The notes below the pieces were generated by a model. It worked only from the letters and a program-made list of their open reading frames with translations, was not told the DNA's origin and searched no databases. The position numbers were made by a program, and so were the translations under genes. Positions 1 to 64,000 of a DNA stretch of 64,000 bases are shown in pieces; position 1 is the stretch's first letter, and every line of letters starts with the position of its first letter. This DNA is from a virus (taxonomy: Duplodnaviria; Caudoviricetes): positions 1,249-65,248 of IMG/VR virus record IMGVR_UViG_3300033064_005393; one strand, written 5' to 3'.

Positions 1-677
1 AAATCTTTTTGTGACACTCCACGAATATCTCTAAAAGTAATCCATCTAAATTGAGGAAACTTCAAGTAGAAAGTTTTCACAATTTTTGCAGTATCACGTG
101 GCTCACGACACTGAATAGAAATAATAGGTTTTGCGGGCTTATCCTTTTTTTCAAAAATACTTGGAATCAATGGTTCAACAACATCGAACGTAACTCCTCG
201 TTGAACTGTTTCAATATATTGTTTTTGTTCGATTGAAGTTGTAATACATTTTAAGAATCCAAATTGAGACCAATTTGAGCCTGGTGGTAGTGTTTCCAAC
301 ATATGATCGTATGCCTGACAAAGAATAATTTTACCAGATGCAATATTGGACAGCTGTTCTAATACGTGTCCGTAAAGTTCAGGTATTACTACAAAATCTT
401 CAGGTGCGATTTGAAGTTCTTGACCTTCAATTGCCGTGTGTGGGATTTTCATATATTCTTCACCCAACCAATCACCTACTCCTTTGTAGTCTTTAGCTTC
501 GTGTAGGATTATTGAGTTATATCCTTGTTTTAGTAGTGAGTTAGCCATTTGATAAATGTATCTAACACCACCTTTTGGGTTGCCTTTTGTGTCTTGTACT
601 AGGAAATAAATTCTTGATTTTTTATTGCCTAAATTTTCAATAGCTCTTTCAACCTTTTTTATAGTTTCTGCGTCCAT
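1..677 (-). CDS. Glycosyltransferase (GT-B/GT4-like), runs off the window edge; not in the ORF track
   Basis: Hand translation from the ATG at 677: MDAETIKKVERAIENLGNKKSRIYFLVQDTKGNPKGGVRYIYQMANSLLKQGYNSIILH..., open to position 1. The 'P-x-GG-xxx-IY-xx-AN-x-L-xxx-GY' N-terminus is typical of GT-B enzymes. Confidence 0.7.
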   Translation of the reverse strand, partial: MDAETIKKVERAIENLGNKKSRIYFLVQDTKGNPKGGVRYIYQMANSLLKQGYNSIILHEAKDYKGVGDWLGEEYMKIPHTAIEGQELQIAPEDFVVIPELYGHVLEQLSNIASGKIILCQAYDHMLETLPPGSNWSQFGFLKCITTSIEQKQYIETVQRGVTFDVVEPLIPSIFEKKDKPAKPIISIQCREPRDTAKIVKTFYLKFPQFRWITFRDIRGVSQKD

Positions 678-678
678 T

Positions 679-948
679 TTAAAATTTTGTTAATATGTTA
701 TGTTTTAATAAGGTATTAAAAGCCAATTTAAAAGGAATACTTAAGTCCGATTGGTTAGTAATACCTAAAGTTTCGTCGAGTTCTTTATGTTCACTCATTA
801 TAACTTCAACCATCAATTTTGACATTTCATATTTGATTGTACTGAATTGATTGTCAGAATTTTCTTCACCATCTTTAGGTGGAATGGATAAGTAAGTTTC
901 GAATCTTTCTAAATCCAAGTAGTAATATTCGTTAAAAATTTTGATCAT
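679..948 (-). CDS. Hypothetical protein
   Basis: 89-aa ORF tightly packed within the minus-strand operon. Confidence 0.7.
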   Translation of the reverse strand: MIKIFNEYYYLDLERFETYLSIPPKDGEENSDNQFSTIKYEMSKLMVEVIMSEHKELDETLGITNQSDLSIPFKLAFNTLLKHNILTKF

Positions 949-950
949 AA

Positions 951-2269: not shown

Positions 2270-2285
2270 ATTTTTATTTCTTAGA

Positions 2286-3419
2286 TTAATTTTTTACTAG
2301 TTCTCTAGTTGTTGGTTTCTGCATAAATTCACGTCTGTAAATTGTTTTTCCGTGATCGGGACTTTCATAGATGTAAACTTTGTCTTCTTGTTCTTTTTGA
2401 ACTTGTTCGTTAATCCATTGATACGTTTTTTTCATACCTTCAATTAATTTAGATTTAGACTCCCATCCGACTTTTTCTTTGAATAGTTTGTTGTCAGAGT
2501 TTCTACCTCTAACGCCAATTGGACACTTAAAACCATACTTGTTTAAAAAGTCTTCTCCGTCTAAATTTTTTATGGTAATACTCTTACCTGAAATATCAAT
2601 TACCATCTGAGCCAATTGATTTATTGTTACCATTTCTTCAGATCCAATATTAACAGGCCCAATAAAATCTGATTCCATAAGTCTGAGTACTGATTCAACA
2701 CACTCATCAACATATAGGAATGAACGTGTCTGTTGACCGTCTCCCCACACTTCTAATTCGTATTCAGGTCTTGGTTGATTGGGAATTTTATCCCGATCAT
2801 TAACCTCCGCCGATTTTCTACACATCGCAGCTGGTGATTTTTCTTTACCACCTTTCCAAGTTCCCTGTGGTCCGAATATATTGTGGAATCTGGCAATTCT
2901 TACATCCAACCCATAGTTTTTATGGAATGCAAGATATACCCTTTCCGAAAATAGTTTTTCCCATCCATATTCTGAATCGGGATTTGCTGGGTATGCCGAT
3001 GACTCCTCAAGATTTAGATTGTTTGGGTCCATTTGATTGTGTTCAGGGTACATACAAGCGGATGAAGAATAGAACACTTTTTTAACACCTTTATTTGAAC
3101 ATTCTTTAACCACGTTTAGATTAATGAGAGAGGAGTTGTGCATCACGTTAGCGTCATTTTCACCGGTAAAAATATAACCAGCACCACCCATATCTGCCGC
3201 CAATTGATATACCTCTTCAATCGTATCGTCTATAACTAAAGAAACAACATTTGGGTCTTTTAAATCTCCAATAATAAACTCATTACAGATATCATCTTGA
3301 TTGAAATATTCGTGCCTTTTTATGTCGCACACACGAACCCAATGTCCTTCAGACTTTAATCTTTTTGCTAAGTGACCGCCAATAAAACCACCACCGCCTA
3401 AAACTACTACTTTTTTCAT
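2286..3419 (-). CDS. NAD-dependent epimerase, GDP-mannose 3,5-epimerase-like, with a short C-terminal extension
   Basis: GGGGFIG, LAADMGG, YSSSACMYP, YGWEK, RFHNIFGP, WGDGQQTRSF and GVRGRNSDN motifs characteristic of the GME subfamily of extended SDRs. Confidence 0.9.
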   Translation of the reverse strand: MKKVVVLGGGGFIGGHLAKRLKSEGHWVRVCDIKRHEYFNQDDICNEFIIGDLKDPNVVSLVIDDTIEEVYQLAADMGGAGYIFTGENDANVMHNSSLINLNVVKECSNKGVKKVFYSSSACMYPEHNQMDPNNLNLEESSAYPANPDSEYGWEKLFSERVYLAFHKNYGLDVRIARFHNIFGPQGTWKGGKEKSPAAMCRKSAEVNDRDKIPNQPRPEYELEVWGDGQQTRSFLYVDECVESVLRLMESDFIGPVNIGSEEMVTINQLAQMVIDISGKSITIKNLDGEDFLNKYGFKCPIGVRGRNSDNKLFKEKVGWESKSKLIEGMKKTYQWINEQVQKEQEDKVYIYESPDHGKTIYRREFMQKPTTRELVKN

Positions 3420-4570
3420 ATTTTAACTTTTTGACCTAATATTAATGTTTTTTCTTCCACAAATCTCACCTTGTTTCCATACTTAGAGATCAATTCTTTT
3501 TCTAAACTATTTCTAACCAAATCGGTTTCATATATAAAACAAGTATACCCCTCATCCAACAAAGAATAAAGTAATAATAATTGTTGGGAATCTGTGGTTA
3601 TGTTTATACCCTTTTTGTATGTAATAGAATCAAATATGAGAGGAAAATTTTTGTTTGGATTTTCTGTAATAACTTTATTGGTTAAAAATTTAAGATGATT
3701 GTTATTGAATTCGTCAATAACATTTGGGATATTGAAATGTAGTCCAATCTTATCTGCGTGTTTTCCGAGTGCTCTGTTGTCACGTGGGAGACAAGGTCCA
3801 CCAAACCCATAACCAAATTTCAGAAACTTATTTCCAACTCTCGAATCTGAACCAATAGTGTCCAACACTGTTGATATTTCGTCTTTAATACCAGTATTAT
3901 GACAAATTTGACCGATCATATTTGCAAAACTAATTTTTGTCGTGAGGTAACAGTTTATACCTATTTTGGTAATTTCTGCCGCTGTTGGTGTCATCTCTTT
4001 AAACACAACATCTTGGGTGAACTTCCTATAAACCTCTTTAATGTCTGAGGTATCGTCTGTAGGTCTGTTACCCAAAAGGATGAAGTCACAATTCATAAGG
4101 TCCTCGATAATGTTACCTTGACGTATAAACTCAGGATTATAAAAGACTTTTATTCCATACTGATTTAATTTTTCTTGGACCGTATCTGTATAACCTGGAT
4201 TTACTGTACAACCGATAACAAACTTTTTGTTTGATAAATCTATTTGATGTGATAAATTGATAAAGTCGTTTACTACCATATCCACAAAAGCGTGGTCGTA
4301 GTCTCCGTCGGGGAGAGATGGTGTTGCAACAAATGTAAAAATTAGATCGGTATTTCGGATAATTTCCGAATTGTGTGTTGTAAATTGTATTTTACGAGAC
4401 ACCTCAAGATATTCCTCAATAAGAGGTTCGTCCGTTTTATATGTTCTGTTGTTCAAACTATCAATATAAGATTGATTAAAGTCCGAACCAATTACCTCAA
4501 ATCCTTTATTTTCTGCCAATAAAGAAAAAGATAATCCTAATTTACCAATACCGATTACTCCAATTTTCAT
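3416..4570 (-). CDS. ugd: UDP-glucose/GDP-mannose 6-dehydrogenase
   Basis: GIGKLG Rossmann motif, FVATP, YNPEF, AEITK and the catalytic GFGGPCLPRD. Confidence 0.9.
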   Translation of the reverse strand: MKIGVIGIGKLGLSFSLLAENKGFEVIGSDFNQSYIDSLNNRTYKTDEPLIEEYLEVSRKIQFTTHNSEIIRNTDLIFTFVATPSLPDGDYDHAFVDMVVNDFINLSHQIDLSNKKFVIGCTVNPGYTDTVQEKLNQYGIKVFYNPEFIRQGNIIEDLMNCDFILLGNRPTDDTSDIKEVYRKFTQDVVFKEMTPTAAEITKIGINCYLTTKISFANMIGQICHNTGIKDEISTVLDTIGSDSRVGNKFLKFGYGFGGPCLPRDNRALGKHADKIGLHFNIPNVIDEFNNNHLKFLTNKVITENPNKNFPLIFDSITYKKGINITTDSQQLLLLYSLLDEGYTCFIYETDLVRNSLEKELISKYGNKVRFVEEKTLILGQKVKI

Positions 4571-4653
4571 AGTATAAATTATTAACTAATCTAAACAATT
4601 TTGACACTAAATAAAGTTATATCAAATAGGGGGTTTTAATTATAAAAATAGTA

Positions 4654-6168
4654 TCAAACATTTTTAAAAATGTTTTGCCATATTGATAGTAACTTTGGTT
4701 TGTGTTGATTAACAAAGGTTAACAGGGATTGAAAATCCTTTTGAAAAAGTGATATTTTTTCAGGGTTTTCATTTCTTGTGACTGACTCATAATGATATGC
4801 TACGGAATTACCTAATGTTACGTTTTTGAATCCACTAATGAGACATTTTAAATTTAGTTCAACATCCTCTAAGCAATCTTCGTAGTTTGTATTAAATCCC
4901 CCAAAGTTTTTAAATGTGGTGGTCCTCATCATTAAGAATGCACCTGTATTACCTACAAGGTTCTTTTTAAAATTCCAAAAGTTATGGTGACTTTTAAAAT
5001 GATGGTGACCAACCTGAAGGTTTGTATTACTGTCTGTATATGCAAAGACACCGGCGTGTTGAACGGTGTTATCTTCAAAGTGTAATCTAATTCCTACAGT
5101 ACCTGCGGTTTTGTTTATTTTAAATTCTTTTACACATTCACTAATCGCATCGTTCAAAATTTTTACATCATTGTTCAAAAACAAAACCAACTCTTCATTA
5201 TTGAGGTGATTAAAGATGACTTCATTATTGATCTTAGCGAAGTTGTAATAATCAAATTCAATTAAATTTATTTTCAAATTATCTTTGTACCTATCCTTAA
5301 TCTCATTCAATTTTTCAAATTCTGATCCTGTGTCGGCAATATAAATTTTGTAGTTTTCGTACCTTGAAATTTCTGTTATTGAATCAACACAATCAAATAA
5401 CAAATTGTTATGATTTTTATGTGGTATTACTATAGCCAACGAAGGGTCGTTTTTCGATGGTTTAATATTAATTGGATTAAAATTAACTTTGTCAGGATAG
5501 ATGGTCAATGGTAAATGTTCACCATATTTGTCTTTGAATTTTACTTTATTGAATTCAAATTCCTGATTTGTTTGACCTACAGATTCGTGAACCAATTCAA
5601 ATGAATTTGTTACTCCAATCTTAACACCTTTAATGTAATTTGGGACGCAAAATGCGTGATCATAAAAGTGAAAACCCTCAATGTATTCATCAAACCTCTC
5701 AACAATTTTTGTTTTATTCACTGCAATAAAAACACCATCAACAGTAACAACAGGTATTATCCCGAACGAAGTGTCTGAATATCTTGAAAGAAATTTCGGT
5801 TTGTCTTTTGGTTTGTGCCAAACCTCACCAACCATATGTATATGTAGTTTTTCCCAATAAACACAAGACTCAGGAAAATGGACACTTCCGGCTTTTCCTA
5901 ATATACCATACTCAGGGTTATCTTGAAAATCTTTTAAAAGTTTTTTACCCCAATTTTTACTCAATTTAACGTCGTTATGAACGAATACCACAATATCGTG
6001 AATAGATTCATCTAAACCCATATTATATATTTGGGATAGGGAAAACTGTCTCATATTAACACTCATTAGGACCTGAATGTCTTTAAGTCCTGAAGTATCT
6101 TTTAAATGTTTGATAAACTCATCGTTTTGTTCGGGAGTTCTATGGGTGGAAAAAACAACACTTATCAT
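4654..6168 (-). CDS. Two-domain GT-A (family 2-like) glycosyltransferase
   Basis: N-domain with FVHNDV, VDGVF and FHFYD; C-domain with IVIP, ADTGS, NFAKINN, FLNND, TGAFL and EDVELNL. Confidence 0.85.
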   Translation of the reverse strand: MISVVFSTHRTPEQNDEFIKHLKDTSGLKDIQVLMSVNMRQFSLSQIYNMGLDESIHDIVVFVHNDVKLSKNWGKKLLKDFQDNPEYGILGKAGSVHFPESCVYWEKLHIHMVGEVWHKPKDKPKFLSRYSDTSFGIIPVVTVDGVFIAVNKTKIVERFDEYIEGFHFYDHAFCVPNYIKGVKIGVTNSFELVHESVGQTNQEFEFNKVKFKDKYGEHLPLTIYPDKVNFNPINIKPSKNDPSLAIVIPHKNHNNLLFDCVDSITEISRYENYKIYIADTGSEFEKLNEIKDRYKDNLKINLIEFDYYNFAKINNEVIFNHLNNEELVLFLNNDVKILNDAISECVKEFKINKTAGTVGIRLHFEDNTVQHAGVFAYTDSNTNLQVGHHHFKSHHNFWNFKKNLVGNTGAFLMMRTTTFKNFGGFNTNYEDCLEDVELNLKCLISGFKNVTLGNSVAYHYESVTRNENPEKISLFQKDFQSLLTFVNQHKPKLLSIWQNIFKNV

Positions 6169-6896
6169 ACTACAAAATTAAAAAAGTTTTTGGCAGATAA
6201 ATCTTCCACCTCATTAAAATTATGATTGTCAAAATCTTGCCAAGTTCTGATACCTTGTCCTTTTTTTGTGTCGGCTCTACCCCTTTTAATTTTTTCTTCA
6301 AACTCGATTTTTGTCTTACAAAAGTAGTGGTTAATTTGTGCCACTTCATCTTTACCTTCGGGGTTAAATGGTCCTGAACCAAGTTTGTTTTCAGGACTTA
6401 CCCACATACCGTCTGTGTTATGTGGAGTCGTAAAATTGTGTTTGGAGGTAACTTTAGAAATTGTTTTAATGTGCCTATTGATTGATTTTTGTCTTTTTGT
6501 AAATCTGTTTACAACACTTGACTCACTCTGAGAAAACTCATCAATATTATTATCACCAAATAAAACCCAATTAATTGCAATATTGTTGAACATCGAATAG
6601 TCTTTGATAAAAGATTTGATGTTGTCGTGTTTTTTTAAAACCAAGTATTCATCCACATCGAAGAAAGCCGCCCAGTCGTATATTCCATCATAATTCTTCA
6701 AAAAGTGATTGTACTTGGGTACTTGAATATTTTCTCCTATAATTTTATATGTTTTTACTTGCGGGTGTTTGATTTCAAAATCCCACTCGTGTTGGAAAAT
6801 AATAATATCATCAAATCCTAATTTTAGGTTATAATCGATCCACTCTTGGATATATAAATCTTCATTTTTAGCGACACAAACTAATGCAACTTTCAT
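6165..6896 (-). CDS. Glycosyltransferase, GT2/GT92-like
   Basis: AKNEDLYIQEWIDY..LGFD, W-x-AFFDVDEY (DxD) and INHY motifs. Confidence 0.85.
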   Translation of the reverse strand: MKVALVCVAKNEDLYIQEWIDYNLKLGFDDIIIFQHEWDFEIKHPQVKTYKIIGENIQVPKYNHFLKNYDGIYDWAAFFDVDEYLVLKKHDNIKSFIKDYSMFNNIAINWVLFGDNNIDEFSQSESSVVNRFTKRQKSINRHIKTISKVTSKHNFTTPHNTDGMWVSPENKLGSGPFNPEGKDEVAQINHYFCKTKIEFEEKIKRGRADTKKGQGIRTWQDFDNHNFNEVEDLSAKNFFNFVV

Positions 6897-12322: not shown

Positions 12323-14476
12323 TTGATGGCCACCCAAAGCATTAATAATTATTACTTCAATCGGTACGATATTAGACTTGATAGTAGTTCATATTTTGAC
12401 ATAACATTGGCGTCCGATGCTCGTGGTTTTGATGAAGAAGTAGTATATTCACAAAAACTAATTGCTGAGGATAATGGTGATAGATTGCCTATTAACATCG
12501 ATCTGAATAGTTTTTATTGTAACCCCAAACAGGATTTGAAGTGGGGTGTTTATTATTCTGCCAATACTTTGGTATCAAAAAACTACTTTGATGTGGGTAA
12601 TTTGGATCAATCTTGTTTACCTGGTTATCAACCATTATGTGATGTTGGTTTGACTGCAACAGACAATGGTTTATATGATTTTATGACCGGACAAACTCTG
12701 TATTTCACAATGAAAGTAGAAAATGATCCTAATTCACAATATTATTTTGATCCACATTATTACAACAGAAGGATGAAATTACATCCCGTGAAAAGTGTAA
12801 TAGATCAACTACCGAATCAAAAGTTTTCAGGAATAACCGCAAATACCGTATATAATATTGTTTCAAAAAAAGATGACAGGGTTGGTTATTATAATGAACT
12901 TTATGGTGGATTTTATCAAGGATTTTACAAACTGTTTGGTTGGGATTATGAAGTTTTTCCTGAAAGAGTAAATAAAGGTTGGACTGCGGAGTTCTTGTTA
13001 AAACCAAGACAGAGAGACGAATTTACAATCAATCCGTCACAAAAATACTTGAATGACATATACCCTGATAATTCCGGTACTTTCTTCTTTTTTGGTACGC
13101 GAGCGGAAAACAAATATTACCATCCTGCTTCAGGTTCTGTCGAAAATGCAATTGGATTTTCTTGCGACTTTGATATTAAAATAAGTGGTGGGACACTTTG
13201 GCAATATGACAGAGTAACCTCAGGATTGACTTGTATCTCTGCTTGTTCCTGTTCATCGACCGCAGTCACAAACTCTAATTGTTTTGCGATTTATCCATAT
13301 TCTTCTACTACCGTTCTTCACAGAATAGGTCCTTGTGAGGTATATGAAACAGTACAAGATATCAAACCATATGATCCTGCTTGGGATGTTGTTTCAAACG
13401 CACTTTCACTACGATTTGAAGGGGATCCAAAAGATCCTCACCTGTGTGTAAAATATATTAAACTGACTGGTGATTGTGTAACTACGGGTGTTTGTACTAC
13501 AGGTTTAACATATGAGTCAGGATATACCATAAATGAGATATGTTCTTCAAGAGGTATCTATTTTGATTGTGACTATGACTCTTTGACTTGTTTGACGGCA
13601 AATACCAAAGAAAGATGGGTTTATATAAGTGCGGTATTCGATAGGTATGAAACTTTGGAAGGGTGTGATTTATTGAATGCCGGTGGTCTTGGTGATATTA
13701 GAAAAGAAGTTTACCCATCCGAACTTAACGGTACATCGTATAATCTTATTATGCCACCACAAACACACTACACTGGCGATACTGGTGTTTTAGCAGATTA
13801 TAACTATTGCACTGACACAATATCAGGAATAACAATAGATTGTTCTAAAAATCAGGGTGTTGAGCAAAAAGAGTCTATCATTCAATTGAATAGAAGATGG
13901 TTGGATGATGTTAGAAATAGAAGAGGGTTATTGAAGTTATACGTTAACGGATATCTTTTTATGATTATTGAAGATTTCGAAGAGATTATACCAAGGGAAT
14001 TGAATACCCAAAAAGAAAAACAAATAGGCGTTCCATTTAATATATCCATAGGCGGAGGAACTCAAGGTTTGAGAGAAAACACTATATTCCCAAATTGCGA
14101 AGACAAATATGGTCCGTATATTCAAGATCCTGAATTATTTCCAAATAATGTTTTGTCAGGGACATCCTTATCAGGTTTGAGTACCGAAATATTAATTGAA
14201 CAAAATTTTGGTGGAACATTTATGGGTGGTCTCTCCCAATTCAGAATGTATGTCGAACCACTCACATCTGCACAAATTCAACATAACGCAAGGATTTTAC
14301 AACCTTGGTTTGATTTATATGATTTTTGGTGTTCCAATTGCTATGATTGTCTATTGGAGTGTTTCTTCGATTTTTCAATTGGAGAAATTGCCTGTAATTT
14401 TGATTGGGTGTTGAGTGAAATTACTTGTGATTTTGGGTTTGTTGCATTTGACCCTGAGTATCCTAATGAATCTTAA
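12323..14476 (+). CDS. Cys-rich putative virion protein with a LamG/concanavalin-like beta-sandwich
   Basis: WTAEF.., W-x-YISAVFDR, LKLYVNG, ISIGG and FMGGLSQFRMY..PLT..QI..N LamG-like pattern; likely start is the ATG at 12326. Confidence 0.7.
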   Translation: MMATQSINNYYFNRYDIRLDSSSYFDITLASDARGFDEEVVYSQKLIAEDNGDRLPINIDLNSFYCNPKQDLKWGVYYSANTLVSKNYFDVGNLDQSCLPGYQPLCDVGLTATDNGLYDFMTGQTLYFTMKVENDPNSQYYFDPHYYNRRMKLHPVKSVIDQLPNQKFSGITANTVYNIVSKKDDRVGYYNELYGGFYQGFYKLFGWDYEVFPERVNKGWTAEFLLKPRQRDEFTINPSQKYLNDIYPDNSGTFFFFGTRAENKYYHPASGSVENAIGFSCDFDIKISGGTLWQYDRVTSGLTCISACSCSSTAVTNSNCFAIYPYSSTTVLHRIGPCEVYETVQDIKPYDPAWDVVSNALSLRFEGDPKDPHLCVKYIKLTGDCVTTGVCTTGLTYESGYTINEICSSRGIYFDCDYDSLTCLTANTKERWVYISAVFDRYETLEGCDLLNAGGLGDIRKEVYPSELNGTSYNLIMPPQTHYTGDTGVLADYNYCTDTISGITIDCSKNQGVEQKESIIQLNRRWLDDVRNRRGLLKLYVNGYLFMIIEDFEEIIPRELNTQKEKQIGVPFNISIGGGTQGLRENTIFPNCEDKYGPYIQDPELFPNNVLSGTSLSGLSTEILIEQNFGGTFMGGLSQFRMYVEPLTSAQIQHNARILQPWFDLYDFWCSNCYDCLLECFFDFSIGEIACNFDWVLSEITCDFGFVAFDPEYPNES

Positions 14477-14492
14477 TGAATATATATAAAAA

Positions 14493-15257
14493 ATGAATTT
14501 CTTCATCAGACAACACAGCAATCTTCCTGTACTTAAAGTTCAACTTTTCAAGGACAGTAGAAACAATTTTAGGGAATTTGCAAATGATTTGTTAGATGCA
14601 ACTATTACATTTTCAATGGTCGATGAGATAACAGGGACATACGTTATTATAGATCAACCAGCATATTTGGAAGAAAATGTTGGATATCCTGGTGAATACT
14701 TTATAGTTTATCAGTTTACTAAAAAACAAACCAAAAAAACAGGTGGTTACATAGGACAATTCAAAGTAAAAAATAATCAGGGTGAGATTATAGTACCTGT
14801 AAGGGAAATATTACAGATAAACATTACAGATTCTTTTAAGTTAGGTGATGCATCTGCAAGTTCATCTTGTTGTAAAGTTAATGGGGGATTTGTACCAACA
14901 CCAAAACCATCAGAGACACCAAATCCTGATTTTGTAACGCCTACGCCAACCGTCACACCAACTGTTACGACGACTCCTACAAATACTCCAACCCCAACTC
15001 CGAGTACGCCCTTTTACTATCTTAGTTTTAAATATAGTAACACCTCTTTCAATGATACTTGTTTAAATTCAGAAGATGGTGATACCTATTTTTCAAATAG
15101 TGTCCCACCTCTTGGTCTCGGGGAACTAATTTATATTAGTACTATTACAGGTAATGAGCCGGCACCTGATGGATATTACATATTGGATGATGATTCTATT
15201 GGTTATAGAGTTGTTTCGTCACAAATTTTGGAAGTCAATATAAACCCTTGTATATAA
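14493..15257 (+). CDS. BppU-like baseplate/fibre-attachment domain, Pro-Thr linker and small C-terminal domain
   Basis: F-x-I...P-x-L...Y-x-F...T-xx-G-x-YIGQF pattern followed by PTPKPSETP...TPTPTVTPTVTTTPTNTPTPTPSTP. Confidence 0.65.
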   Translation: MNFFIRQHSNLPVLKVQLFKDSRNNFREFANDLLDATITFSMVDEITGTYVIIDQPAYLEENVGYPGEYFIVYQFTKKQTKKTGGYIGQFKVKNNQGEIIVPVREILQINITDSFKLGDASASSSCCKVNGGFVPTPKPSETPNPDFVTPTPTVTPTVTTTPTNTPTPTPSTPFYYLSFKYSNTSFNDTCLNSEDGDTYFSNSVPPLGLGELIYISTITGNEPAPDGYYILDDDSIGYRVVSSQILEVNINPCI

Positions 15258-15266
15258 AATTTAGAT

Positions 15267-15706: not shown

Positions 15707-18529
15707 ATGGTATCACAACAAGAAATCGAAGAATTCCTCTTAGGTGAGGACCCTGAAAAATATATAGTAGCTCTCGAATACGATTACGCTACATCAAAGA
15801 TTTACAAGATTATTCAGGACCCTGAAAAGGGAAAGATGATTAAACCCGATACATTTATTCCGTTTGCTTGGGTTGGTGATCTTCATAGTAAAAACTTTTA
15901 TGGACGTGATAAGTATCGTCAGAAACAAGCAATCACAGAACACGGGATTATAATTGAGAAGTTAGAGACACACGGAGACCCTCGTTTGGAGTTGGGTCTT
16001 CGTTTTTTTATCAAAACAACCAAGACATATCAGAACCTTGTGAACTTTTTTAAGAATGGTGGTTTGGATCCTTGGGATCGTGATAATTCGGGCGTTATAT
16101 CCATTTTACCTCCTGTTGAACAATATCTCGTGCAAAAACAGAAAAGATTGTTCAAGGGTTTTGAAGAATACGATGAGGTTCACCGATTTGTATTTGATAT
16201 TGAGACCACGGGTCTTAACCCGAAGGTCGACAAGATATTCCTTATCGGTATGAAAGATAACAAGGGATTTGTTCACCTGTTGTCTGCACAGAATGAAGAT
16301 GAAGAACGTGAGATGATTAAGGACTTCTTTAGGACAATCGATGTATTGAAACCAACACTTGTTGGTGGTTATAACTCGGCATTCTTTGACTTTCCCTTTA
16401 TTCTTACTCGAGCTCAGATTCTTGGATTGGACATTAAGAAGATTTCAAAAACCCTCCATCCCGATCACCCGTTAAAACAAAAAGAGGGTATTTTAAAACT
16501 TGCCAACGAGATGGAACCTTATACTCAAACACAGATGTGGGGTTATAACATTGTTGATATTGCTCACGCAGTTAGACGTGCTCAGGCAATCAATTCTGAC
16601 ATCAAGAGTTGGGGTCTGAAATACATTACTCAATTTATTGGGGCAGAGAAAGAAAACCGAGTTTACGTTCAGGGTGATAAGATAGGTAAGATTTATTTTG
16701 AAAAGGAGGACTATTACTTTAATCCCCTTTCGGGTGGATTCAAAAAAGTTGGCGATCGTGGAACTGAAGACTTGCAAACCAGATTCCCTGGTAAATTTGA
16801 AATAGTAAAAGGTTCATACCTTATCGAACGATACCTTGATGATGACTTGTATGAAACGATGATTGTTGATGGAGAGTTCAATCAAGCAAACTTCCTTCTT
16901 GCAAAATTAGTTCCAACAACTTATGAGCGTCTTTCTACTATGGGTACTGCAACTCTGTGGAAAATGATTATGGCATCTTGGTCTTACAAACACAATTTGG
17001 CAATTCCAGCAAAGGGTGAGAAACGACCATTTACAGGTGGTCTTTCAAGATTACTACAGGTAGGATACTCGAGAGATGTATTAAAACTTGACTATTCTTC
17101 CCTGTATCCTTCTATTCAGTTGGTTCACGATGTATTCCCAAAGTGTGATGTGACAGGTGCGATGAAAAGTATGTTAAAGTACTTCCGTGATACCCGTATT
17201 AAATACAAAAACCTTGCTGAAGAATACTCAAAGACCGACCCAAAACTATCATCACAATATGGACGTAAACAGTTACCTATCAAAATTTTTATCAATGCGT
17301 TATTCGGTTCTCTATCAGCACCTCACGTATTCCCTTGGGGTGATATGGATATGGGTGAACAGATTACTTGTACTGGTCGCCAGTATCTGCGTCAGATGAT
17401 TATGTGGTTTGGTAATCGTGGTTATGAATCATTGGTTATGGATACGGATGGTGTAAACTTTGCAGTCCCTGAAGAAAGATATTCTTACAAATACATCGGT
17501 AAAGGACTAAATGGTCTTGTAACAAAAGGAAAGGAATATGTTGGGACTGAGGCGGATGTTGCGGAATACAACGACATTTTTATGAGGGATGAGATGGGTC
17601 TTGATACAGATGGACAATGGCCAGCAACTATTAACGTTGCTCGTAAAAACTATGCCCTTTTGACCGATAAGGGTAAGGTAAAACTTATAGGTAATACCAT
17701 CAAATCAAAGAGACTTCAGACCTACGTTGCGGAGTTCTTGGATTCAGGTCTACGTATGTTGTTGGATGGTAAGGGTCACGAATTCTTGGATTCATACTAT
17801 GATTATGTAGACAAACTTTACAACAAAAAAATTCCAATAGCAAAAATTGCGAATAAAGCACGTGTAAAACAATCTGTTCAGGAATACAAACAACATATCA
17901 CAAAAAAAACCAAATCCGGTTCTTTTATGTCTCGTCAAGCTCATATGGAATTGTTATTGAAATCAGGTGTAAATGTAGGATTGGGTGATACGGTTTTCTA
18001 TGTGAACAATGGTGAAAGAAAATCACACGGGGATGTTCAAAAAAAGGGTGATGTACTTCTCTTGAATTGTTATTTGGTAAACGAAAAAGACATTGAACAA
18101 AATCCTGATATGTTGGGTGAATATAATGTTCCTCGGTACCTGACGGCCTTCAACAAAAGAATAGAACCTTTGTTGGTTGTATTTTCTCCAAAAATCAGAG
18201 ATGAAATTTTGGTCGAAGATCCTGAAAAGAGACCATATTTTACTAAGACACAGACACAACTTGTTCGTGGGTTCCCTCGACGCGATGGTGATCAAGATAA
18301 TATTGATGAAGTATTAACTTTGTCCGATGGTGAAATTGCTTTTTGGAGACACCGAGAAATCGACCCGTATTATATGTATCTTGATTCTACTATGGAACTA
18401 GTAAATGGTGAGTATATTGCAAAAAATAAAGACCTGATATATGGAGATTATGAGGTCAAAACGCAAATTCCTAAGGATGAGTTGTATGAGATGGACGAAA
18501 ACGGTGACTATTTAATTTACTCTTTATGA
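15707..18529 (+). CDS. Family B DNA polymerase with proofreading exonuclease
   Basis: FDIETTG, YNSAFFD, LDYSSLYPS, KIFINALFG, MDTDG and RKNYA motifs. Confidence 0.95.
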   Translation: MVSQQEIEEFLLGEDPEKYIVALEYDYATSKIYKIIQDPEKGKMIKPDTFIPFAWVGDLHSKNFYGRDKYRQKQAITEHGIIIEKLETHGDPRLELGLRFFIKTTKTYQNLVNFFKNGGLDPWDRDNSGVISILPPVEQYLVQKQKRLFKGFEEYDEVHRFVFDIETTGLNPKVDKIFLIGMKDNKGFVHLLSAQNEDEEREMIKDFFRTIDVLKPTLVGGYNSAFFDFPFILTRAQILGLDIKKISKTLHPDHPLKQKEGILKLANEMEPYTQTQMWGYNIVDIAHAVRRAQAINSDIKSWGLKYITQFIGAEKENRVYVQGDKIGKIYFEKEDYYFNPLSGGFKKVGDRGTEDLQTRFPGKFEIVKGSYLIERYLDDDLYETMIVDGEFNQANFLLAKLVPTTYERLSTMGTATLWKMIMASWSYKHNLAIPAKGEKRPFTGGLSRLLQVGYSRDVLKLDYSSLYPSIQLVHDVFPKCDVTGAMKSMLKYFRDTRIKYKNLAEEYSKTDPKLSSQYGRKQLPIKIFINALFGSLSAPHVFPWGDMDMGEQITCTGRQYLRQMIMWFGNRGYESLVMDTDGVNFAVPEERYSYKYIGKGLNGLVTKGKEYVGTEADVAEYNDIFMRDEMGLDTDGQWPATINVARKNYALLTDKGKVKLIGNTIKSKRLQTYVAEFLDSGLRMLLDGKGHEFLDSYYDYVDKLYNKKIPIAKIANKARVKQSVQEYKQHITKKTKSGSFMSRQAHMELLLKSGVNVGLGDTVFYVNNGERKSHGDVQKKGDVLLLNCYLVNEKDIEQNPDMLGEYNVPRYLTAFNKRIEPLLVVFSPKIRDEILVEDPEKRPYFTKTQTQLVRGFPRRDGDQDNIDEVLTLSDGEIAFWRHREIDPYYMYLDSTMELVNGEYIAKNKDLIYGDYEVKTQIPKDELYEMDENGDYLIYSL

Positions 18530-28440: not shown

Positions 28441-28450
28441 TAATAAAAAT

Positions 28451-28478
28451 AAAAGGTGGTCGTAAGATCACCTTTTTT
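28451..28478 (+). terminator. Intrinsic terminator after the sheath gene
   Basis: GGTGGTC-GTAA-GATCACC stem with a GNRA loop followed by TTTTTT. Confidence 0.8.
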
Positions 28479-28499
28479 GCCTTTTTAATATTTATTAGT

Positions 28500-28643
28500 A
28501 TGGAATTTAATAAAAAAACTTTTTTGGAGTCTTTAAGTAAGGACTCTAATGGTGTAAAAACATTTTCTGAAAAACCTCAGAATATCGTAATTAACGAAAC
28601 TCAATTAGAGAGATTGATTGATAAGTTATATTCTAACGATTAA
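28500..28643 (+). CDS. Small hypothetical protein (47 aa)
   Basis: MEFNKKTFLESL...NIVINETQLERLIDKLYSND; the ATG at 28500 follows the terminator and a TATTTAT motif at 28489-95. Confidence 0.65.
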   Translation: MEFNKKTFLESLSKDSNGVKTFSEKPQNIVINETQLERLIDKLYSND

Positions 28644-28646
28644 CAA

Positions 28647-29504: not shown

Positions 29505-29608
29505 AAATTCTAGATAGTTATAGAGTAATAAACAAAATCAAATTTAAAGTAAATAGAAAAACTTTTTACGATATATTTATAAACAAATAAAAGAAAAAAA
29601 ATACAACA

Positions 29609-30097: not shown

Positions 30098-30130
30098 GAA
30101 ATCTTTATTAAAAATAAGTCTGTATTATAT

Positions 30131-30165
30131 TTAACCATAGGTAACCCCTATGGTTAATTTTTTTT
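30131..30165 (+). terminator. Intrinsic terminator after the tube gene
   Basis: TTAACCATAGG-TAACC-CCTATGGTTAA followed by T8, ending right at the next ATG. Confidence 0.75.
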
Positions 30166-54229: not shown

Positions 54230-54235
54230 TACCAA

Positions 54236-56074: not shown

Positions 56075-56143
56075 CCTTATATTCAGTTTAATTTACTACC
56101 ACCTAAAATTTGATAAATAACTATTTATCACAAAAGGATAACT

Positions 56144-61210: not shown

Positions 61211-62910
61211 TGAGTAACACGGATTCTGGTATATTATATATTCCTGGCTCTCTTAGATTTAAGAGTAACACAAACAAATCTTTGTTTGTGCAGGTTCCTT
61301 TGCAAAATGATTTTAGAGAATTTATTGAAGGTGACAGAAGTTCTTTGATAAATCTTGAACAAATTTTTGAGGCAGAAAGACAAGGTAGTTCGAGATTTAG
61401 AGTGGCTGGTAAAATTACTAATATTTTTGATAACACAATAACAGGTAAAACTAATTACACTCCGTTTACCAACTCCCTTTATTACGTTGATGCTGTAAAT
61501 TCTGTCAACACGGGAATTTGGAAAGGTTACCCTCAGTCAAGTGAGTTTTCTTTTTTTAGAACACAAGGAATAAGTGGACATACCACATACATTCCTAAAA
61601 GTGCTGGAACATATAACTATAATGTTTACTTGTCATATAATTATAGTAGTTCCACCACACAAGTTATGAGTTATAGAGACTCAGATTTAGGTGTTAGCGT
61701 TGATAATTTTATTTCAGGTGATGGTATCCCATTTGTTATCCAAAACAATCAATTCGATGGAAAACCATATATCTATTTTTATTGTGCTACTCCACATAAT
61801 TTACAAATAGGTCAGTATGTTGAATTATCCGTAACTTCAAATAATACTAACCTATTTCAAGTTTATGATTTGGGAGATGAAAATTTTGGTTCTGCTGAAA
61901 CGGTTTTTGCTTTGTATGATATTGGTTACACCGCGTTAACAAATAATATAGGTGGAACCTTCAAAAGAATTGTTGATATTCAAAATAGTGGTGAAACAAA
62001 ATCAAAATATTATGTTAGACTACACAAAATTTTAACAACACCTTCACAGTCTGATGTAACCAAAATGGGATTCGAAAATTCTATTTTCGCAAGTCAAAAA
62101 AAATTAGAATATTCTGCGTTGACACCAAACAACATAGAAAGGATATCTCAAAAAAATGACACTCAAAGTTTTTCATTTTCATTTGACGAAGACATAGACA
62201 TAAGTGGACTTTTGGATTCTAATAAAAAACCAATAAAAGAACTTTTTGTAACTGTAATAGAAAAGGGTTATATGGGTTGGTTCAACAAACCATATAACTC
62301 CACATTCTCAAGTGCTATTGATATTGGGTGGTCATTTAACTTTGAAAAGGATATGGTTTCTAACTGGTGGAACCACTCGTCTTATGACAACAAAGATGAT
62401 ATTCCTGTCAGTAGTTATACGATCAATGGTAGAACTTTCTTTTACAATCAGGACCTACCCGTTGGACACGTAATCAAAGGTGATTTTTGTGAATATAATG
62501 AAACTGAACAACAAGAATATGTTCTATCAAAAATGTCACACAAGTTTTCATACAACCCTGATGTTTTTCAGAATAACGACACCCCTGAATTTCCTTCAGG
62601 TTATGCATACCAAACACATTATTCAATTCCGATCAGACAGTATTCAACATATATAGAATCTGCTGAACCTCAAGAAGTTGATAATCTTCCTGATTGGGCG
62701 TATTACTCTCAATATTATGAAGCTTGGTATTGGAGGGATATCTACACATATGGATTTACAGATGCCGATGGATTCGGGGTGGACCTACCATTTATTAACG
62801 GATCCCATTACCCCTTTGCTCAGGTGTTGTTTTTACAAACCCCTGTAATCAAAGACACGAGTATTTATGCACAACTCATAATACAGCCTATAATTGACGA
62901 ATGTGAATAA
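61210..62910 (+). CDS. Putative structural (baseplate) protein
   Basis: Translationally coupled within the baseplate operon; aromatic, beta-rich composition. Confidence 0.65.
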   Translation: MSNTDSGILYIPGSLRFKSNTNKSLFVQVPLQNDFREFIEGDRSSLINLEQIFEAERQGSSRFRVAGKITNIFDNTITGKTNYTPFTNSLYYVDAVNSVNTGIWKGYPQSSEFSFFRTQGISGHTTYIPKSAGTYNYNVYLSYNYSSSTTQVMSYRDSDLGVSVDNFISGDGIPFVIQNNQFDGKPYIYFYCATPHNLQIGQYVELSVTSNNTNLFQVYDLGDENFGSAETVFALYDIGYTALTNNIGGTFKRIVDIQNSGETKSKYYVRLHKILTTPSQSDVTKMGFENSIFASQKKLEYSALTPNNIERISQKNDTQSFSFSFDEDIDISGLLDSNKKPIKELFVTVIEKGYMGWFNKPYNSTFSSAIDIGWSFNFEKDMVSNWWNHSSYDNKDDIPVSSYTINGRTFFYNQDLPVGHVIKGDFCEYNETEQQEYVLSKMSHKFSYNPDVFQNNDTPEFPSGYAYQTHYSIPIRQYSTYIESAEPQEVDNLPDWAYYSQYYEAWYWRDIYTYGFTDADGFGVDLPFINGSHYPFAQVLFLQTPVIKDTSIYAQLIIQPIIDECE

Positions 62911-63724
62911 GTATCGTTTTACTCTTAATCCTAACACTCAACAGATTACGATTCCAATTGATTTGTCTTGGGAAAATGCTGGACGTGGTGATGCGGTCAG
63001 TGCTTATGAATCTGATATAATTTCACAGGTCATCAACCCAATAGATGACTTCGAAGTCACAAGATTTGCACACAGTTTTTGGAACATAGAAAACACCAAA
63101 ACAAATATTAATTACGAGTTTTTCTTTTTTGATGATCAAGATAACCAAGTTACCGCAACGACGGATTGTAGTTTATGGTTGAGTGATTATCAATCAGCAG
63201 GATTCACAGATGACGAAATTTATTATTTTGCCAACTCGTTTAAAAATAGTTTTTTCAAGTTGGATTTTTATGATAACAAACAGACAGAAACTCAAAGACT
63301 TTATTTTACGGTTATTTTACCGACACAACAGGGATTGGTAGAGCCAGGATTTATCGGTAGTGTAGATAACCCAACAGAAGTTTTGGTAAAGTACCCAACT
63401 TATGTTTTAGATTATGTTGGTGACAAAGAAGGTTTCTTTTTGTATTGGTTGAAAGATACGTCTTACTTGGATATCGATACTTTTTATTTTACTGTCAAGT
63501 TTTTTAACGCAAAAACAGGACAATTTGTTCGTATGATGAACCAATGTCAGGGACAACTACCAAACAAATTTAACTTCAATCAATCTGAAAAATTCTACTA
63601 CAAATGTGAGTTGGATTATTCTAACTATGAATATAAAATGTATTCAGAGGCGCCTGGTGGATCAACAACAAGAGTTGGTACGGAAACAAATCCGATAAAA
63701 TGGTACGAATATATTAATCCCTAA
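62894..63724 (+). CDS. Putative structural protein
   Basis: Overlapping coupled ORF in the same operon. Confidence 0.65.
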   Translation: MTNVNKYRFTLNPNTQQITIPIDLSWENAGRGDAVSAYESDIISQVINPIDDFEVTRFAHSFWNIENTKTNINYEFFFFDDQDNQVTATTDCSLWLSDYQSAGFTDDEIYYFANSFKNSFFKLDFYDNKQTETQRLYFTVILPTQQGLVEPGFIGSVDNPTEVLVKYPTYVLDYVGDKEGFFLYWLKDTSYLDIDTFYFTVKFFNAKTGQFVRMMNQCQGQLPNKFNFNQSEKFYYKCELDYSNYEYKMYSEAPGGSTTRVGTETNPIKWYEYINP

Positions 63725-64000
63725 TGGAGCCTATTATCTACAAATATAGAGTATCACCTGAGGTTCTCAAAACGGACATTGTTCAGGTAACCTACGACAA
63801 CGAAACGTTTGGGGTATATTCAGGTATGCCACAGATTTTAAGTGGAGGGACAGGAGGATCAAGTTTACTGACAGGTTTATCTCTAACAATATTGTTCACA
63901 CAAACTTATAATGATTTGGGTTATTATTCACCATTTGATGGACTTATGGTTCAGAAAGATGTTGTAACCAATTTCTTATATTCTGCCGATACAACTGACA
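63724..64000 (+). CDS. Putative structural protein, truncated by the window end; not in the ORF track
   Basis: ATG overlaps the preceding TAA; MEPIIYKYRVSPEVLKTDIVQVTYDNETFGVYSGMPQILSGGTGGSSLLTGLS... stays open to the end. Confidence 0.75.
   Translation, partial: MEPIIYKYRVSPEVLKTDIVQVTYDNETFGVYSGMPQILSGGTGGSSLLTGLSLTILFTQTYNDLGYYSPFDGLMVQKDVVTNFLYSADTTD

What the first reader, a model, noticed from the sequence alone, without database searches (positions are those of the whole stretch)
1..64000. Apparent complete avoidance of the tetramer CATG
Seen: reading many kilobases across all modules I found no CATG, while GATC, GGCC, CCGG, TCGA, AGCT, GTAC and TGCA all occur. His codons before G-starting codons are CAC (cacgat, cacgaa, cacgta) despite the AT-rich bias. 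Base composition predicts very roughly a couple of hundred sites in 64 kb. Known: CATG is the target of NlaIII-type enzymes, including FatI from Flavobacterium aquatile. Inference: long-term selection by a host CATG-specific restriction system, or by a phage-encoded CATG nuclease that degrades host DNA. It also suggests this DNA is not globally protected by hypermodification.
Basis: partly seen in the sequence, partly recalled or inferred. Interest (0 to 1): 0.7.

Follow-up and report, generated by a model that had tools for sequence, protein, structure and literature searches.

The report
Phage genome purged of CATG sites
This 65-kb piece of an uncultured freshwater jumbo phage contains no CATG at all, most likely because its host cuts DNA at that word, and related phages have erased other four-letter palindromes in the same way.

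Summary
CATG occurs 0 times in the window and in the whole 65,248-nt contig. Base composition predicts 206, a Markov model 139-144, and synonymous-codon shuffles 99 +/- 8. It is the only absent tetramer. The sites were removed through silent codon choices. His before G is CAC in 62 of 62 cases, 0 of 368 codons before an internal Met end in C, and 0 of 69 NCN codons before TGN are NCA.

The contig is about 21% of an uncultured ~300-kb freshwater myovirus. Its closest relatives also lack CATG and have not regained it despite hundreds of substitutions.

Other members of the clade have erased other 4-bp palindromes: GATC (0 of ~875 in 297 kb), CATG plus GATC (0 of 766 and 0 of 845 in a complete 308.6-kb genome), ACGT, TCGA, GTAC, CCGG and GGCC.

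The best reading is avoidance of type II restriction sites met in the host population. The host is probably a Bacteroidota, but neither the host nor its enzyme was identified.

No phage nuclease gene tracks the pattern. The nuclease-like domain fused to SOD does not correlate with it. This is a known kind of feature at an unusual scale.

The parts
1..64000 (.). CATG-free stretch. It covers the whole window and also the 1,248 nt of the contig before it.
   Evidence: 0 CATG against 99-206 expected. The window is 97% coding by a simple ORF call.
15707..18529 (+). Family B DNA polymerase, used to find relatives and to compare orthologous sites.
   Evidence: phrog_262, E 1e-53. 216 relatives in IMG/VR, of which the best 80 were kept. 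At 48 alignment positions where a relative has CATG, the window has a synonymous alternative at 23 and an amino-acid change or gap at 25.
20000..21559 (-). Fe/Mn superoxide dismutase (residues 47-238) fused to a C-terminal domain whose last ~117 residues resemble a PD-(D/E)XK nuclease.
   Evidence: Pfam Sod_Fe_N and Sod_Fe_C. AlphaFold2 model of residues 241-519, mean pLDDT 75. Hjc Z 7.4, I-Ssp6803I Z 7.2, HhaI Z 7.0. Foldseek best E 0.02. Residues E410, D443, Q456 and K458 are invariant in 12 sequences. Presence of the domain does not follow CATG loss.
2286..6896 (-). Variable sugar-metabolism island: NAD-dependent epimerase, UDP-glucose/GDP-mannose dehydrogenase and two family-2 glycosyltransferases. 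The epimerase gives the host hint.
   Evidence: Pfam. The epimerase and one glycosyltransferase have no homologue in the 297-kb relative G002. The epimerase is 72-77% identical to genes of Flavobacterium and Chitinophagaceae; 19 of the 20 best GTDB loci are named Bacteroidota.
25231..30918 (+). Tail sheath, tail tube and baseplate hub genes. They identify a contractile-tailed phage.
   Evidence: PHROGs phrog_23, phrog_4542 and phrog_150.
12323..15257 (+). Variable region where the 96.5%-identical relative L001 carries 2.35 kb of different genes, including the only two CATG of that locus.
   Evidence: blastn aligns L001 only from window 15268 onward. The two CATG lie at L001 positions 85 and 96, in the part that does not align.

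Best explanation
The window is about one fifth of the genome of an uncultured freshwater jumbo myovirus, probably infecting Bacteroidota. Its lineage has removed every CATG under selection by a restriction enzyme that cuts unmethylated CATG (NlaIII/FatI type) in the host population.

Each site in incoming phage DNA is a chance of being cut before the host methylase can protect it. Every lost site therefore raises the chance of a successful infection. CATG can always be avoided silently: CAT|G becomes CAC|G, NNC|ATG becomes NNT/A/G|ATG, and NCA|TGN becomes NCT/C/G|TGN. The purge can therefore run to completion without changing proteins.

Shown here: the absence, its silent codon-level mechanism, continued purifying selection in the lineage, and a clade-wide patchwork of different purged palindromes.

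Inferred: that the selecting agent is a host type II restriction enzyme, and that the host is a Bacteroidota.
For: (1) 0 CATG against 99-206 expected, and it is the only absent tetramer.

(2) Removal is silent and uses a different base of the tetramer in each frame. CAT before G occurs 0 of 62 times. Codons ending in C before an internal ATG occur 0 of 368 times, although 14% of all codons end in C. NCA before TGN occurs 0 of 69 times. At conserved PolB positions the relatives' CATG is replaced by CACG, by NNT-ATG or by NCT-TGG.

(3) Selection is ongoing. L001 differs from the window by 434 substitutions in 13.3 kb and L007 by 838 in 5.9 kb, and none creates a CATG. Random substitutions of the same number and spectrum create 6.0 (P0 = 0.0015) and 9.6 (0 of 2000 trials without a site). 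Three further contigs of the lineage have 0/42, 0/25 and 0/29; one of them reaches 9.7 kb beyond the window.

(4) The trait is derived and specific to this lineage. In a PolB tree, WIN+L001+L007 form a supported subclade inside a clade whose other members keep CATG at about 0.4-0.8 of expectation but lack GATC.

(5) Across relatives the purged words are all 4-bp palindromes of the kind type II enzymes cut. GATC is at or below 0.15 of expectation in 45 of 80 PolB loci (zero in 41), CATG in 5, TCGA in 3, ACGT in 2 and CCGG in 2. GTAC, GGCC and GCGC appear in other samples.

Whole records confirm this. G002 (297 kb) has GATC 0/875. G001 (219.5 kb) has GATC 0/634. G004 (166 kb) has ACGT 7/198. The complete 308.6-kb G010 has CATG 0/766 and GATC 0/845.

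(6) Switches occur between phages 88-96% identical in PolB DNA.

(7) Published surveys report that complete or near-complete elimination of orthodox type II sites occurs in about one tenth of prokaryotic virus genomes, mostly non-temperate dsDNA phages (PMC6286503, abstract read).

(8) Two Bacteroidota genomes sampled here are themselves almost free of CATG (2/188 and 2/156). Each carries 8-9 Dam-class methyltransferase matches.
Against: No host was identified. PolB found nothing in 185,579 GTDB species genomes, and the Bacteroidota hint rests on one gene in a variable island. No CATG-specific restriction enzyme or methylase was found in any candidate host.

Only about 21% of the genome is in the contig. 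A phage-borne cause elsewhere in the genome cannot be excluded.

The clade carries conserved DNA methyltransferases of unknown specificity. Their role in the pattern is not understood.

The loci counted are not independent: many are near-identical, and some come from the same records.
Confidence: 0.8

Rival explanations
1. The phage itself encodes a CATG-specific endonuclease that degrades host DNA, as chloroviruses do with CviAII. It protects its own genome by having no sites instead of by methylation.
For: The C-terminal ~117 residues of the SOD fusion (window 20000-21559) resemble PD-(D/E)XK nucleases (Z 7.4-5.9 to Hjc, I-Ssp6803I, HhaI, NhoI and DpnI; Foldseek E 0.02) and carry an invariant D...QxK. 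About 79% of the genome is unseen. Many window ORFs have no family assignment.
Against: The SOD-fused domain occurs in 16 GATC-free relatives that keep CATG and in L002, which has no purged word. It was not detected in the CATG-poor L030, L067 and L077. Apart from two sugar-island genes and a 55-aa ORF, every window ORF has a homologue in the CATG-containing G002. Between the collinear G001 (GATC-free) and G004 (ACGT-free) the differing genes are sugar-island genes, unknowns and one HNH_3 gene that the GATC-free G002 lacks. The DpnII family was found in 0 of 5 relatives. At least eight different purged tetramers in one clade would require frequent swapping of phage nucleases.
Confidence: 0.07
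2. The purge is driven by methylation-dependent restriction. A phage or host methyltransferase methylates CATG, and hosts carrying a methyl-directed nuclease select against the methylated sites.
For: All six large relatives examined carry one Dam-family (D12) and at least one N6_N4 methyltransferase gene. The D12 enzyme scores below the Dam subfamily cut-off (61.6 against 114.85 bits), so its target is unknown.
Against: The same two methyltransferase families are present whatever word is purged: GATC in G001 and G002, ACGT in G004, CATG plus GATC in G010, none in G005. Losing a methyltransferase gene is a far shorter route than losing hundreds of sites.
Confidence: 0.05
3. CATG is excluded for a reason unrelated to nucleases, such as a unique regulatory or packaging signal or a mutational bias at this word.
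For: In pandoraviruses the total loss of AGCT could not be explained by restriction-modification (bioRxiv 10.1101/712018, abstract and discussion read).
Against: Relatives with the same gene set keep hundreds of CATG (G002 has 530, G001 has 390). The base changed differs with the reading frame (C to T, A to T, T to C), so no single mutational path explains it. Other lineages purge other palindromes.
Confidence: 0.03
4. The absence is an artefact of sequencing or assembly, for example systematic miscalls at a modified CATG.
For: Nothing beyond the general possibility. The record is a metagenome assembly.
Against: A miscall would turn CATG into one fixed other word and would damage Met and His codons. 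Instead the proteins are conserved and the change is silent and frame-dependent. Independent contigs from other records are also CATG-free. Contigs of four public runs from four coded studies cover the 10-kb stretch laid. None of the 40 listed differences (of 393) creates a CATG.
Confidence: 0.01

Closest known systems
Avoidance of orthodox type II restriction sites by virulent dsDNA phages (survey: Rusinov et al. 2018, PMC6286503, abstract and passages read)
   Same: A short palindromic word is eliminated from a dsDNA phage genome far beyond compositional expectation. Complete or near-complete elimination is reported for about one tenth of viral genomes.
   Different: Here the host and its enzymes are unknown. 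The genomes are very large (about 300 kb). One clade shows at least eight different purged tetramers, with switches between phages 88-96% identical in PolB DNA.
HF1-group haloviruses lacking CTAG and GATC (PMC7230728, passages and Table 3 read)
   Same: Whole virus genomes have zero copies of one or two 4-bp palindromes. This is attributed to host restriction-modification systems. CATG is also under-represented there (0.24-0.44).
   Different: Those are ~76-kb archaeal viruses in which CATG is only reduced. Here CATG is the word removed entirely, in a bacterial jumbo-phage lineage.
Jumbo enterobacterial phages (345-359 kb) lacking GCGC, and pandoraviruses lacking AGCT (Poirot et al. 2019, bioRxiv 10.1101/712018, abstract and sections 7 and 11 read)
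   Same: A single tetramer is totally absent from a very large viral genome, the absence correlates with phylogeny, and replacement is undirected.
   Different: GCGC is rare anyway in AT-rich genomes, whereas CATG and GATC here have expectations of about 770-875 per genome. The pandavirus case was judged not explicable by restriction-modification; here all purged words are classical type II targets.
Chlorovirus CviAII restriction-modification system (recalled; Poirot et al. mention only that such hijacked systems occur in chloroviruses)
   Same: A virus-linked CATG-specific nuclease is a known precedent for the rival reading.
   Different: Chloroviruses protect their own DNA by a cognate methylase and keep the sites. 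No such nuclease or cognate methylase was found here.

Membership tests
Type II restriction-site avoidance in a phage genome | The avoided word is a short palindrome that known type II enzymes cut | tested here: met
   CATG is a 4-bp palindrome. FatI is stated to cut CATG in the abstract of PMC10055417 (listing). NlaIII and the Flavobacterium origin of FatI are recalled, not checked.
Type II restriction-site avoidance in a phage genome | Depletion far beyond composition, Markov and codon-usage expectations | tested here: met
   0 against 206, 139-144 and 99 +/- 7.7.
Type II restriction-site avoidance in a phage genome | Specific to one or a few words, not a general loss of palindromes | tested here: met
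   It is the only absent tetramer. GATC is at 0.67-0.92, TGCA 0.83-0.88 and AGCT 0.58-0.97 of expectation. No comparable 5-mer or 6-mer was found.
Type II restriction-site avoidance in a phage genome | Sites removed by selection on DNA with proteins preserved | tested here: met
   Frame-specific silent choices. Synonymous replacement at 23 of 48 orthologous PolB positions. No site regained over 434 and 838 substitutions.
Type II restriction-site avoidance in a phage genome | The host encodes a restriction enzyme with that specificity | not testable with these tools
   The host is unknown. PolB gave no hit in GTDB genomes. There is only a phylum-level hint from the epimerase.
Type II restriction-site avoidance in a phage genome | Virulent (non-temperate) dsDNA phage | tested here: inconclusive
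   It is a contractile-tailed phage with its own replication genes, and no integrase family was seen among the window ORFs scanned. Only about 21% of the genome is present.
Virus-encoded restriction-modification used against host DNA (chlorovirus CviAII type) | A virus gene for a site-specific endonuclease | tested here: inconclusive
   No restriction-enzyme family was found in the window. DpnII family 0 of 5 relatives. The PD-(D/E)XK-like domain on SOD does not track the purged word. Most of the genome is unseen.
Virus-encoded restriction-modification used against host DNA (chlorovirus CviAII type) | A cognate methyltransferase that protects the viral genome, so that the sites are kept | tested here: not met
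   The sites are absent, not kept. PF02086 and PF01555 gave 0 matches in the contig. In relatives the methyltransferase families are the same whatever word is purged.
PD-(D/E)XK nuclease superfamily (C-terminal domain of the SOD fusion) | Alpha-beta-beta-beta-alpha-beta core fold | tested here: inconclusive
   Model residues 163-279 align to Hjc (Z 7.4, rmsd 3.7, 103 residues), I-Ssp6803I (7.2) and HhaI (7.0). Foldseek best E is 0.02. The tool's own note says Z under 8 may reflect only a common arrangement.
PD-(D/E)XK nuclease superfamily (C-terminal domain of the SOD fusion) | Catalytic D...(D/E)xK motif on strands 2 and 3 | tested here: inconclusive
   D443 lies just before a predicted strand and Q456-I-K458 within the next one. 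All are invariant in 12 sequences. The middle acidic residue is Q, so activity is uncertain.

The most novel reading that the evidence does not exclude
The purge is self-immunity and not evasion. Phages of this clade carry interchangeable 4-bp-specific nucleases, either in the unseen part of this genome or as the PD-(D/E)XK-like domain fused to SOD. These nucleases shred the host chromosome, and each lineage is safe from its own enzyme because it has erased that word instead of methylating it.
Probability: 0.07. Interest if true: 0.8.

Novelty: new member of a known kind. Interest (0 to 1): 0.5.

Why it matters
Avoidance of restriction sites is textbook biology, so the mechanism is not new. 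The scale and clarity here are unusual.

- One widespread uncultured clade of ~300-kb freshwater phages holds genomes with zero copies of words expected about 770-875 times.
- One complete genome lacks two such words.
- Closely related lineages have purged different words, or have begun to regain one.

This is a natural record of which restriction specificities the hosts have used. It could be used to match uncultured phages to host strains through their restriction-modification and methylation repertoires. It also offers a way to measure how fast such constraints arise and decay.

There is a practical use as well. Digesting lake virome DNA with a CATG or GATC cutter should leave these genomes intact, which gives a simple enrichment method.

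Tried and rejected
- **GenBank phages, near search:** a megablast of 25 kb found nothing (one search was a one-base size slip). Protein searches gave only distant hits. PolB was about 25% identical to Salinibacter and Nostoc phages. The sheath was 28% identical to Microcystis phage Mel-JY01 and 32% to part of the sheath of the Flavobacterium 'immuto' phages. No cultured relative or host follows from these.
- **Host search:** PolB found no relative in GTDB genomes.
- **tRNA genes:** none in the window.
- **Tree:** the maximum-likelihood run did not finish in time. The tree used is FastTree with SH-like support only.
- **Left-end extension:** searching with window gene 951-1550 found no close relative, best 64%. 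Only the right end could be extended.
- **The lineage's methyltransferase genes:** searching with a relative's D12 gene returned three CATG-poor loci (L109, L118, L129). I could not show that they belong to the window's own lineage.
- **Read laying:** all four runs are kept as contigs. Only 40 of 393 differences were listed, so this is a weak check.
- **DpnII family:** no match in 5 relatives. This covers one enzyme family only.
- **C5 methyltransferase (PF00145):** 0 of 5 relatives.
- **Literature:** the term sets 'CATG / restriction site avoidance / phage' (0 papers), 'CATG / avoidance / bacteriophage / restriction', 'FatI / CATG / Flavobacterium', 'jumbo phage / GATC / avoidance / freshwater' and 'CATG / underrepresented / phage genome / palindrome' turned up no description of this clade or of a CATG-free phage. 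That is no proof that none exists. Supplementary tables of the papers cited could not be seen.
- **CCAG/CTGG depletion:** I considered it a second restriction target and rejected that, because it is similar in all five genomes checked whatever word they purge.


Full report
**1. The observation**

An exact count gives 0 CATG in the 64,000-nt window. The count is also 0 in the whole 65,248-nt contig of which the window is bases 1249-65248.

Three models give the expected count:
- Base composition (A 33%, T 32%, G 18%, C 17%): 206.
- Maximal-order Markov model: 139 for the window and 144 for the contig.
- Permuting synonymous codons among all ORFs, 300 times: 99.0 +/- 7.7, minimum 77.

The codon permutation keeps every protein sequence and the exact codon usage, which is itself already shaped by the avoidance. 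It is therefore the hardest of the three nulls.

CATG is the only tetramer with a zero count. The next lowest are CTAG (24 against 94, O/E 0.26), CCGG (28 against 72, 0.39) and the pair CCAG/CTGG (0.42 and 0.56). GATC, GTAC, TGCA, TCGA, ACGT and AGCT lie between 0.58 and 0.97 of expectation, depending on the null. No 5-mer or 6-mer with a usable expectation is comparably depleted.

**2. How the sites are avoided**

The window is 97% coding by a simple ORF call. The avoidance can be seen in each reading frame.
- His codons followed by G are CAC in 62 of 62 cases. Before A, C or T they are CAT 86 times and CAC 103 times.
- None of the 368 codons that precede an internal ATG ends in C, although 14% of all codons do.
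- None of the 69 NCN codons that precede TGN is NCA, although NCA makes up 44% of NCN codons elsewhere.

I aligned the PolB gene with 80 relatives. At 48 positions at least one relative has CATG. At 23 of these the window encodes the same two residues with a silent alternative (CAT-G to CAC-G, NNC-ATG to NNT/G-ATG, NCA-TGG to NCT-TGG). At the other 25 the residues differ or there is a gap.

The base of the tetramer that is changed depends on the frame. This rules out a fixed miscall or a single mutational path. It points to selection on the DNA word under protein constraint. Every CATG can be avoided synonymously in all three frames (standard genetic code), so the purge costs nothing at the protein level.

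**3. What the DNA is**

The ORFs include the following:
- Structural genes: a tail sheath, tail tube and baseplate proteins.
- Replication genes: a family B DNA polymerase, a DnaB-like helicase, an SNF2-type helicase, SSB, a UvsX-like recombinase and a 5'-3' exonuclease.
- Nucleotide metabolism: both subunits of ribonucleotide reductase, a dUTPase-like protein and PhoH.
- A Fe/Mn superoxide dismutase fusion.
- A small sugar-metabolism island.

There are no tRNA genes. There is no near match in GenBank phages, and protein matches to cultured phages are distant.

IMG/VR holds 216 contigs with a PolB relative, and the best 80 are 72-99% identical. Several of these contigs are 166-297 kb long. One of them (G002, 297,164 nt) is rated 99% complete, and the window's contig is rated 21% complete. 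The window is collinear with G002 positions 125.6-199 kb. Of 52 window ORFs, 48 have a homologue there.

Public runs that hold a 10-kb stretch of the window are labelled freshwater, lake-water, aquatic or plain 'metagenome' and come from eight coded studies. Contigs of four runs from four studies cover the stretch. In three of them the strains differ by about 2-4%.

The epimerase gene in the sugar island is the only host hint. Among 185,579 GTDB species genomes its best matches (72-77% identity) are Flavobacterium, Chitinophagaceae and other Bacteroidota. That is 19 of the 20 best loci by name, with one unnamed.

**4. The trait in relatives**

The lineage closest to the window shares the trait.
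- L001 is 96.5% identical in DNA over 13.3 kb and has no CATG in the aligned part. Its only two CATG lie 11 nt apart, in 2.35 kb of different genes at the contig end.
- L007 has 0 of 18 expected.
- L315, L316 and L317 have 0 of 42, 25 and 29 expected. L315 reaches 9.7 kb beyond the window.

The 434 and 838 substitutions that separate the window from L001 and L007 create no CATG. The same number and spectrum of random substitutions create 6.0 (P of none 0.0015) and 9.6 (none in 0 of 2000 trials). The constraint has therefore been active during the recent divergence of these strains.

In a FastTree PolB tree these three rows form a supported subclade (SH-like 100). It sits inside a 20-row clade whose other members keep CATG at about 0.4-0.8 of expectation. 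Of those other 17 members, 16 have GATC at or below 0.15 of expectation.

**5. The clade-wide pattern**

I flagged a word when its expectation was at least 8-10 and its O/E was at most 0.15.
- **80 PolB loci:** GATC 45 (zero in 41), CATG 5, TCGA 3, ACGT 2, CCGG 2, none 27.
- **80 loci around a conserved methyltransferase gene:** GATC 30, ACGT 5, TCGA 5, CCGG 5, GTAC 4, CATG 3, GGCC 1, none 35.
- **80 loci found with the window's last gene:** GATC 64, CATG 21 (18 of them together with GATC), plus TCGA, CCGG, GCGC and GGCC combinations, none 13.

These loci are not independent samples, because many are near-identical or lie on the same records.

| Record | Length | Result |
|---|---|---|
| G002 | 297 kb | GATC 0 of 875 expected, CATG 530 of 977 |
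| G001 | 219.5 kb | GATC 0 of 634 |
| G004 | 166 kb | ACGT 7 of 198, GATC 443 of 566 |
| G010 | 308,574 nt, complete, 123-nt terminal repeat | CATG 0 of 766 and GATC 0 of 845 |

G010 is a more distant relative: PolB is 58% identical, and 46 of 52 window ORFs have a hit in it.

On the PolB tree the states need 12 changes, where 6 is the minimum possible. CATG loss needs at least two origins.

Switches separate phages that are 88-96% identical in PolB DNA. For example, L026 has GATC 11 of 46 and L031 has 0 of 70, at 95.7% identity. This looks like recent relaxation, though that is my inference.

**6. Why host restriction is the best explanation**

All purged words are 4-bp palindromes of the kind orthodox type II enzymes cut. 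The pattern is word-specific, differs between lineages and is reversible. It is achieved by undirected silent substitutions.

This is the signature described for restriction-site avoidance. A survey of about 4000 viruses reports complete or near-complete elimination in about one tenth of genomes, mainly for orthodox type II sites in non-temperate dsDNA phages (PMC6286503, abstract). HF1-group haloviruses lack CTAG and GATC entirely (PMC7230728, passages and Table 3). Jumbo enterobacterial phages of 345-359 kb lack GCGC (bioRxiv 10.1101/712018, section 7).

What is not shown here is the enzyme. The host is unknown and no CATG restriction-modification system was located.

As context only, two Bacteroidota genomes were reached through the epimerase search: a Raineya orbicola record and a Cytophagales MAG. 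They are themselves nearly free of CATG (2 of 188 and 2 of 156 expected) and of five other palindromes. Each carries 8-9 Dam-class methyltransferase matches. Pressure on this word therefore exists within the phylum, but these are not proposed as the host.

**7. The rival readings**

*A phage-encoded CATG nuclease.* No restriction-enzyme or DNA-methyltransferase family was found in the window's ORFs or by six-frame search.

An AlphaFold2 model of residues 241-519 (12-sequence alignment, mean pLDDT 75) has a C-terminal alpha/beta part. That part aligns to Holliday-junction resolvase Hjc (Z 7.4), I-Ssp6803I (7.2), HhaI (7.0), NhoI (6.7) and DpnI (5.9). Foldseek gives E 0.02 at best. E410, D443, Q456 and K458 are invariant. 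These scores are middling, so the fold assignment is tentative.

The domain is present at 43-57% identity in L002 and in 16 relatives that lack GATC but keep CATG. It was not detected in the CATG-poor L030, L067 and L077. It does not track the trait.

Between the collinear G001 and G004, which purge different words, the genes that differ are:
- sugar-island genes (NeuB, a short-chain dehydrogenase, a class IV aminotransferase, glycosyltransferases and an asparagine-synthase-like gene);
- several ORFs with no family match;
- one HNH_3 gene that the GATC-free G002 lacks.

The DpnII family is absent from five relatives. This rival is not excluded, because 79% of this genome is unseen, but nothing supports it.

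*Methylation-dependent restriction.* All six large relatives examined carry one Dam-family and at least one N6_N4 methyltransferase gene, whatever word they purge. No C5 methyltransferase was found in the five checked. The specificity of the Dam-family enzyme is unknown. A constant gene set cannot by itself explain a variable pattern.

*Artefact.* This is very unlikely, given the silent, frame-dependent replacements, the independent CATG-free contigs and the coverage by contigs of other runs.

**8. On hypermodification**

A word-specific purge implies that the DNA is exposed to at least that enzyme. The purged words in the clade together involve all four bases, so no single blanket base modification seems to protect these genomes. 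This is an inference. The conserved methyltransferases show that some methylation is likely.

**9. Verdict**

The finding is real and statistically overwhelming. Its most likely cause is the classical one, so I file it as a new member of a known kind. Its value lies in the clade. These are abundant uncultured ~300-kb freshwater phages. Whole genomes lack one or two words expected about 770-875 times, and neighbouring lineages differ in which word is forbidden.

Noticed in passing
G010 (record of L391), whole 308,574 nt; loci L413-L428: A complete jumbo-phage genome (123-nt direct terminal repeat, rated 100% complete) has 0 CATG (766 expected) and 0 GATC (845 expected). It still carries one Dam-family and one N6_N4 methyltransferase gene.
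   Followed up: partly
G006 (record of L248, Raineya orbicola) and G007 (record of L233, Cytophagales MAG); loci L307-L314: In 75-80 kb sampled from each, two Bacteroidota genomes are nearly free of six 4-bp palindromes. The counts are GCGC 0/133 and 0/115, CATG 2/188 and 2/156, GGCC 2/215 and 2/206, GATC 8/160 and 7/162, TCGA 9/158 and 9/188, and CTAG 13/183 and 10/160. Each has 8-9 Dam-class methyltransferase matches, several as adjacent pairs.
   Followed up: partly
window 20000-21559 (-): Superoxide dismutase is a core gene of the clade: the N-terminal part is found in 80 of 80 PolB loci. In the window's 20-row subclade it is fused to a ~280-residue domain that ends in a PD-(D/E)XK-like fold with D...QxK. 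Why an SOD would be joined to a nuclease-like module is unexplained.
   Followed up: partly
window 2286-6896 (-); G001 86.2-98.1 kb; G004 47.6-55.8 kb: At one position the phages carry a hypervariable island of sugar-nucleotide and glycosyltransferase genes. The window has an epimerase, UDP-glucose dehydrogenase and GT2s. G001 has NeuB, a short-chain dehydrogenase, an aminotransferase and fucosyltransferase-like GTs. G004 has GT11 and an asparagine-synthase-like gene. The target of the glycosylation is unknown.
   Followed up: partly
L082:1363-2238 (-) and its orthologues (518 tblastn-confirmed matches in IMG/VR, best 80 kept): A Dam-family (D12) methyltransferase is conserved across the clade, including in genomes with no GATC at all. 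If it targets GATC it has no substrate in the phage's own DNA. Its specificity is unknown: it scores 61.6 bits against a Dam subfamily cut-off of 114.85.
   Followed up: partly
whole contig; G001, G002, G004, G010: The non-palindromic pair CCAG/CTGG is at 0.35-0.54 of Markov expectation in all five genomes, while CAGG/CCTG is at 1.3-1.8. This is clade-wide and independent of which palindrome is purged.
   Followed up: partly
L001:1-2354 against window 12323-15267: The 96.5%-identical relative carries different genes here: a partial ORF and an ORF with Gly/Ser-rich repeats. These hold the locus's only two CATG, 11 nt apart near the contig end. This could be a recently imported module or an assembly chimera. 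G002 has about 8.6 kb of extra DNA at the same junction.
   Followed up: partly
GATC is 11/46 in L026 against 0/70 in L031. L029 and L032 are ACGT-free with GATC present, while L023 and L024 are GATC-free. This suggests rapid relaxation and replacement of the constraint.
   Followed up: partly
L317 (83% identical in the window's last gene): A more distant member of the window's lineage has CATG 0/29 and GATC 2/41. It may be an intermediate between a GATC-free ancestor and the CATG-only state of the window.
   Followed up: no
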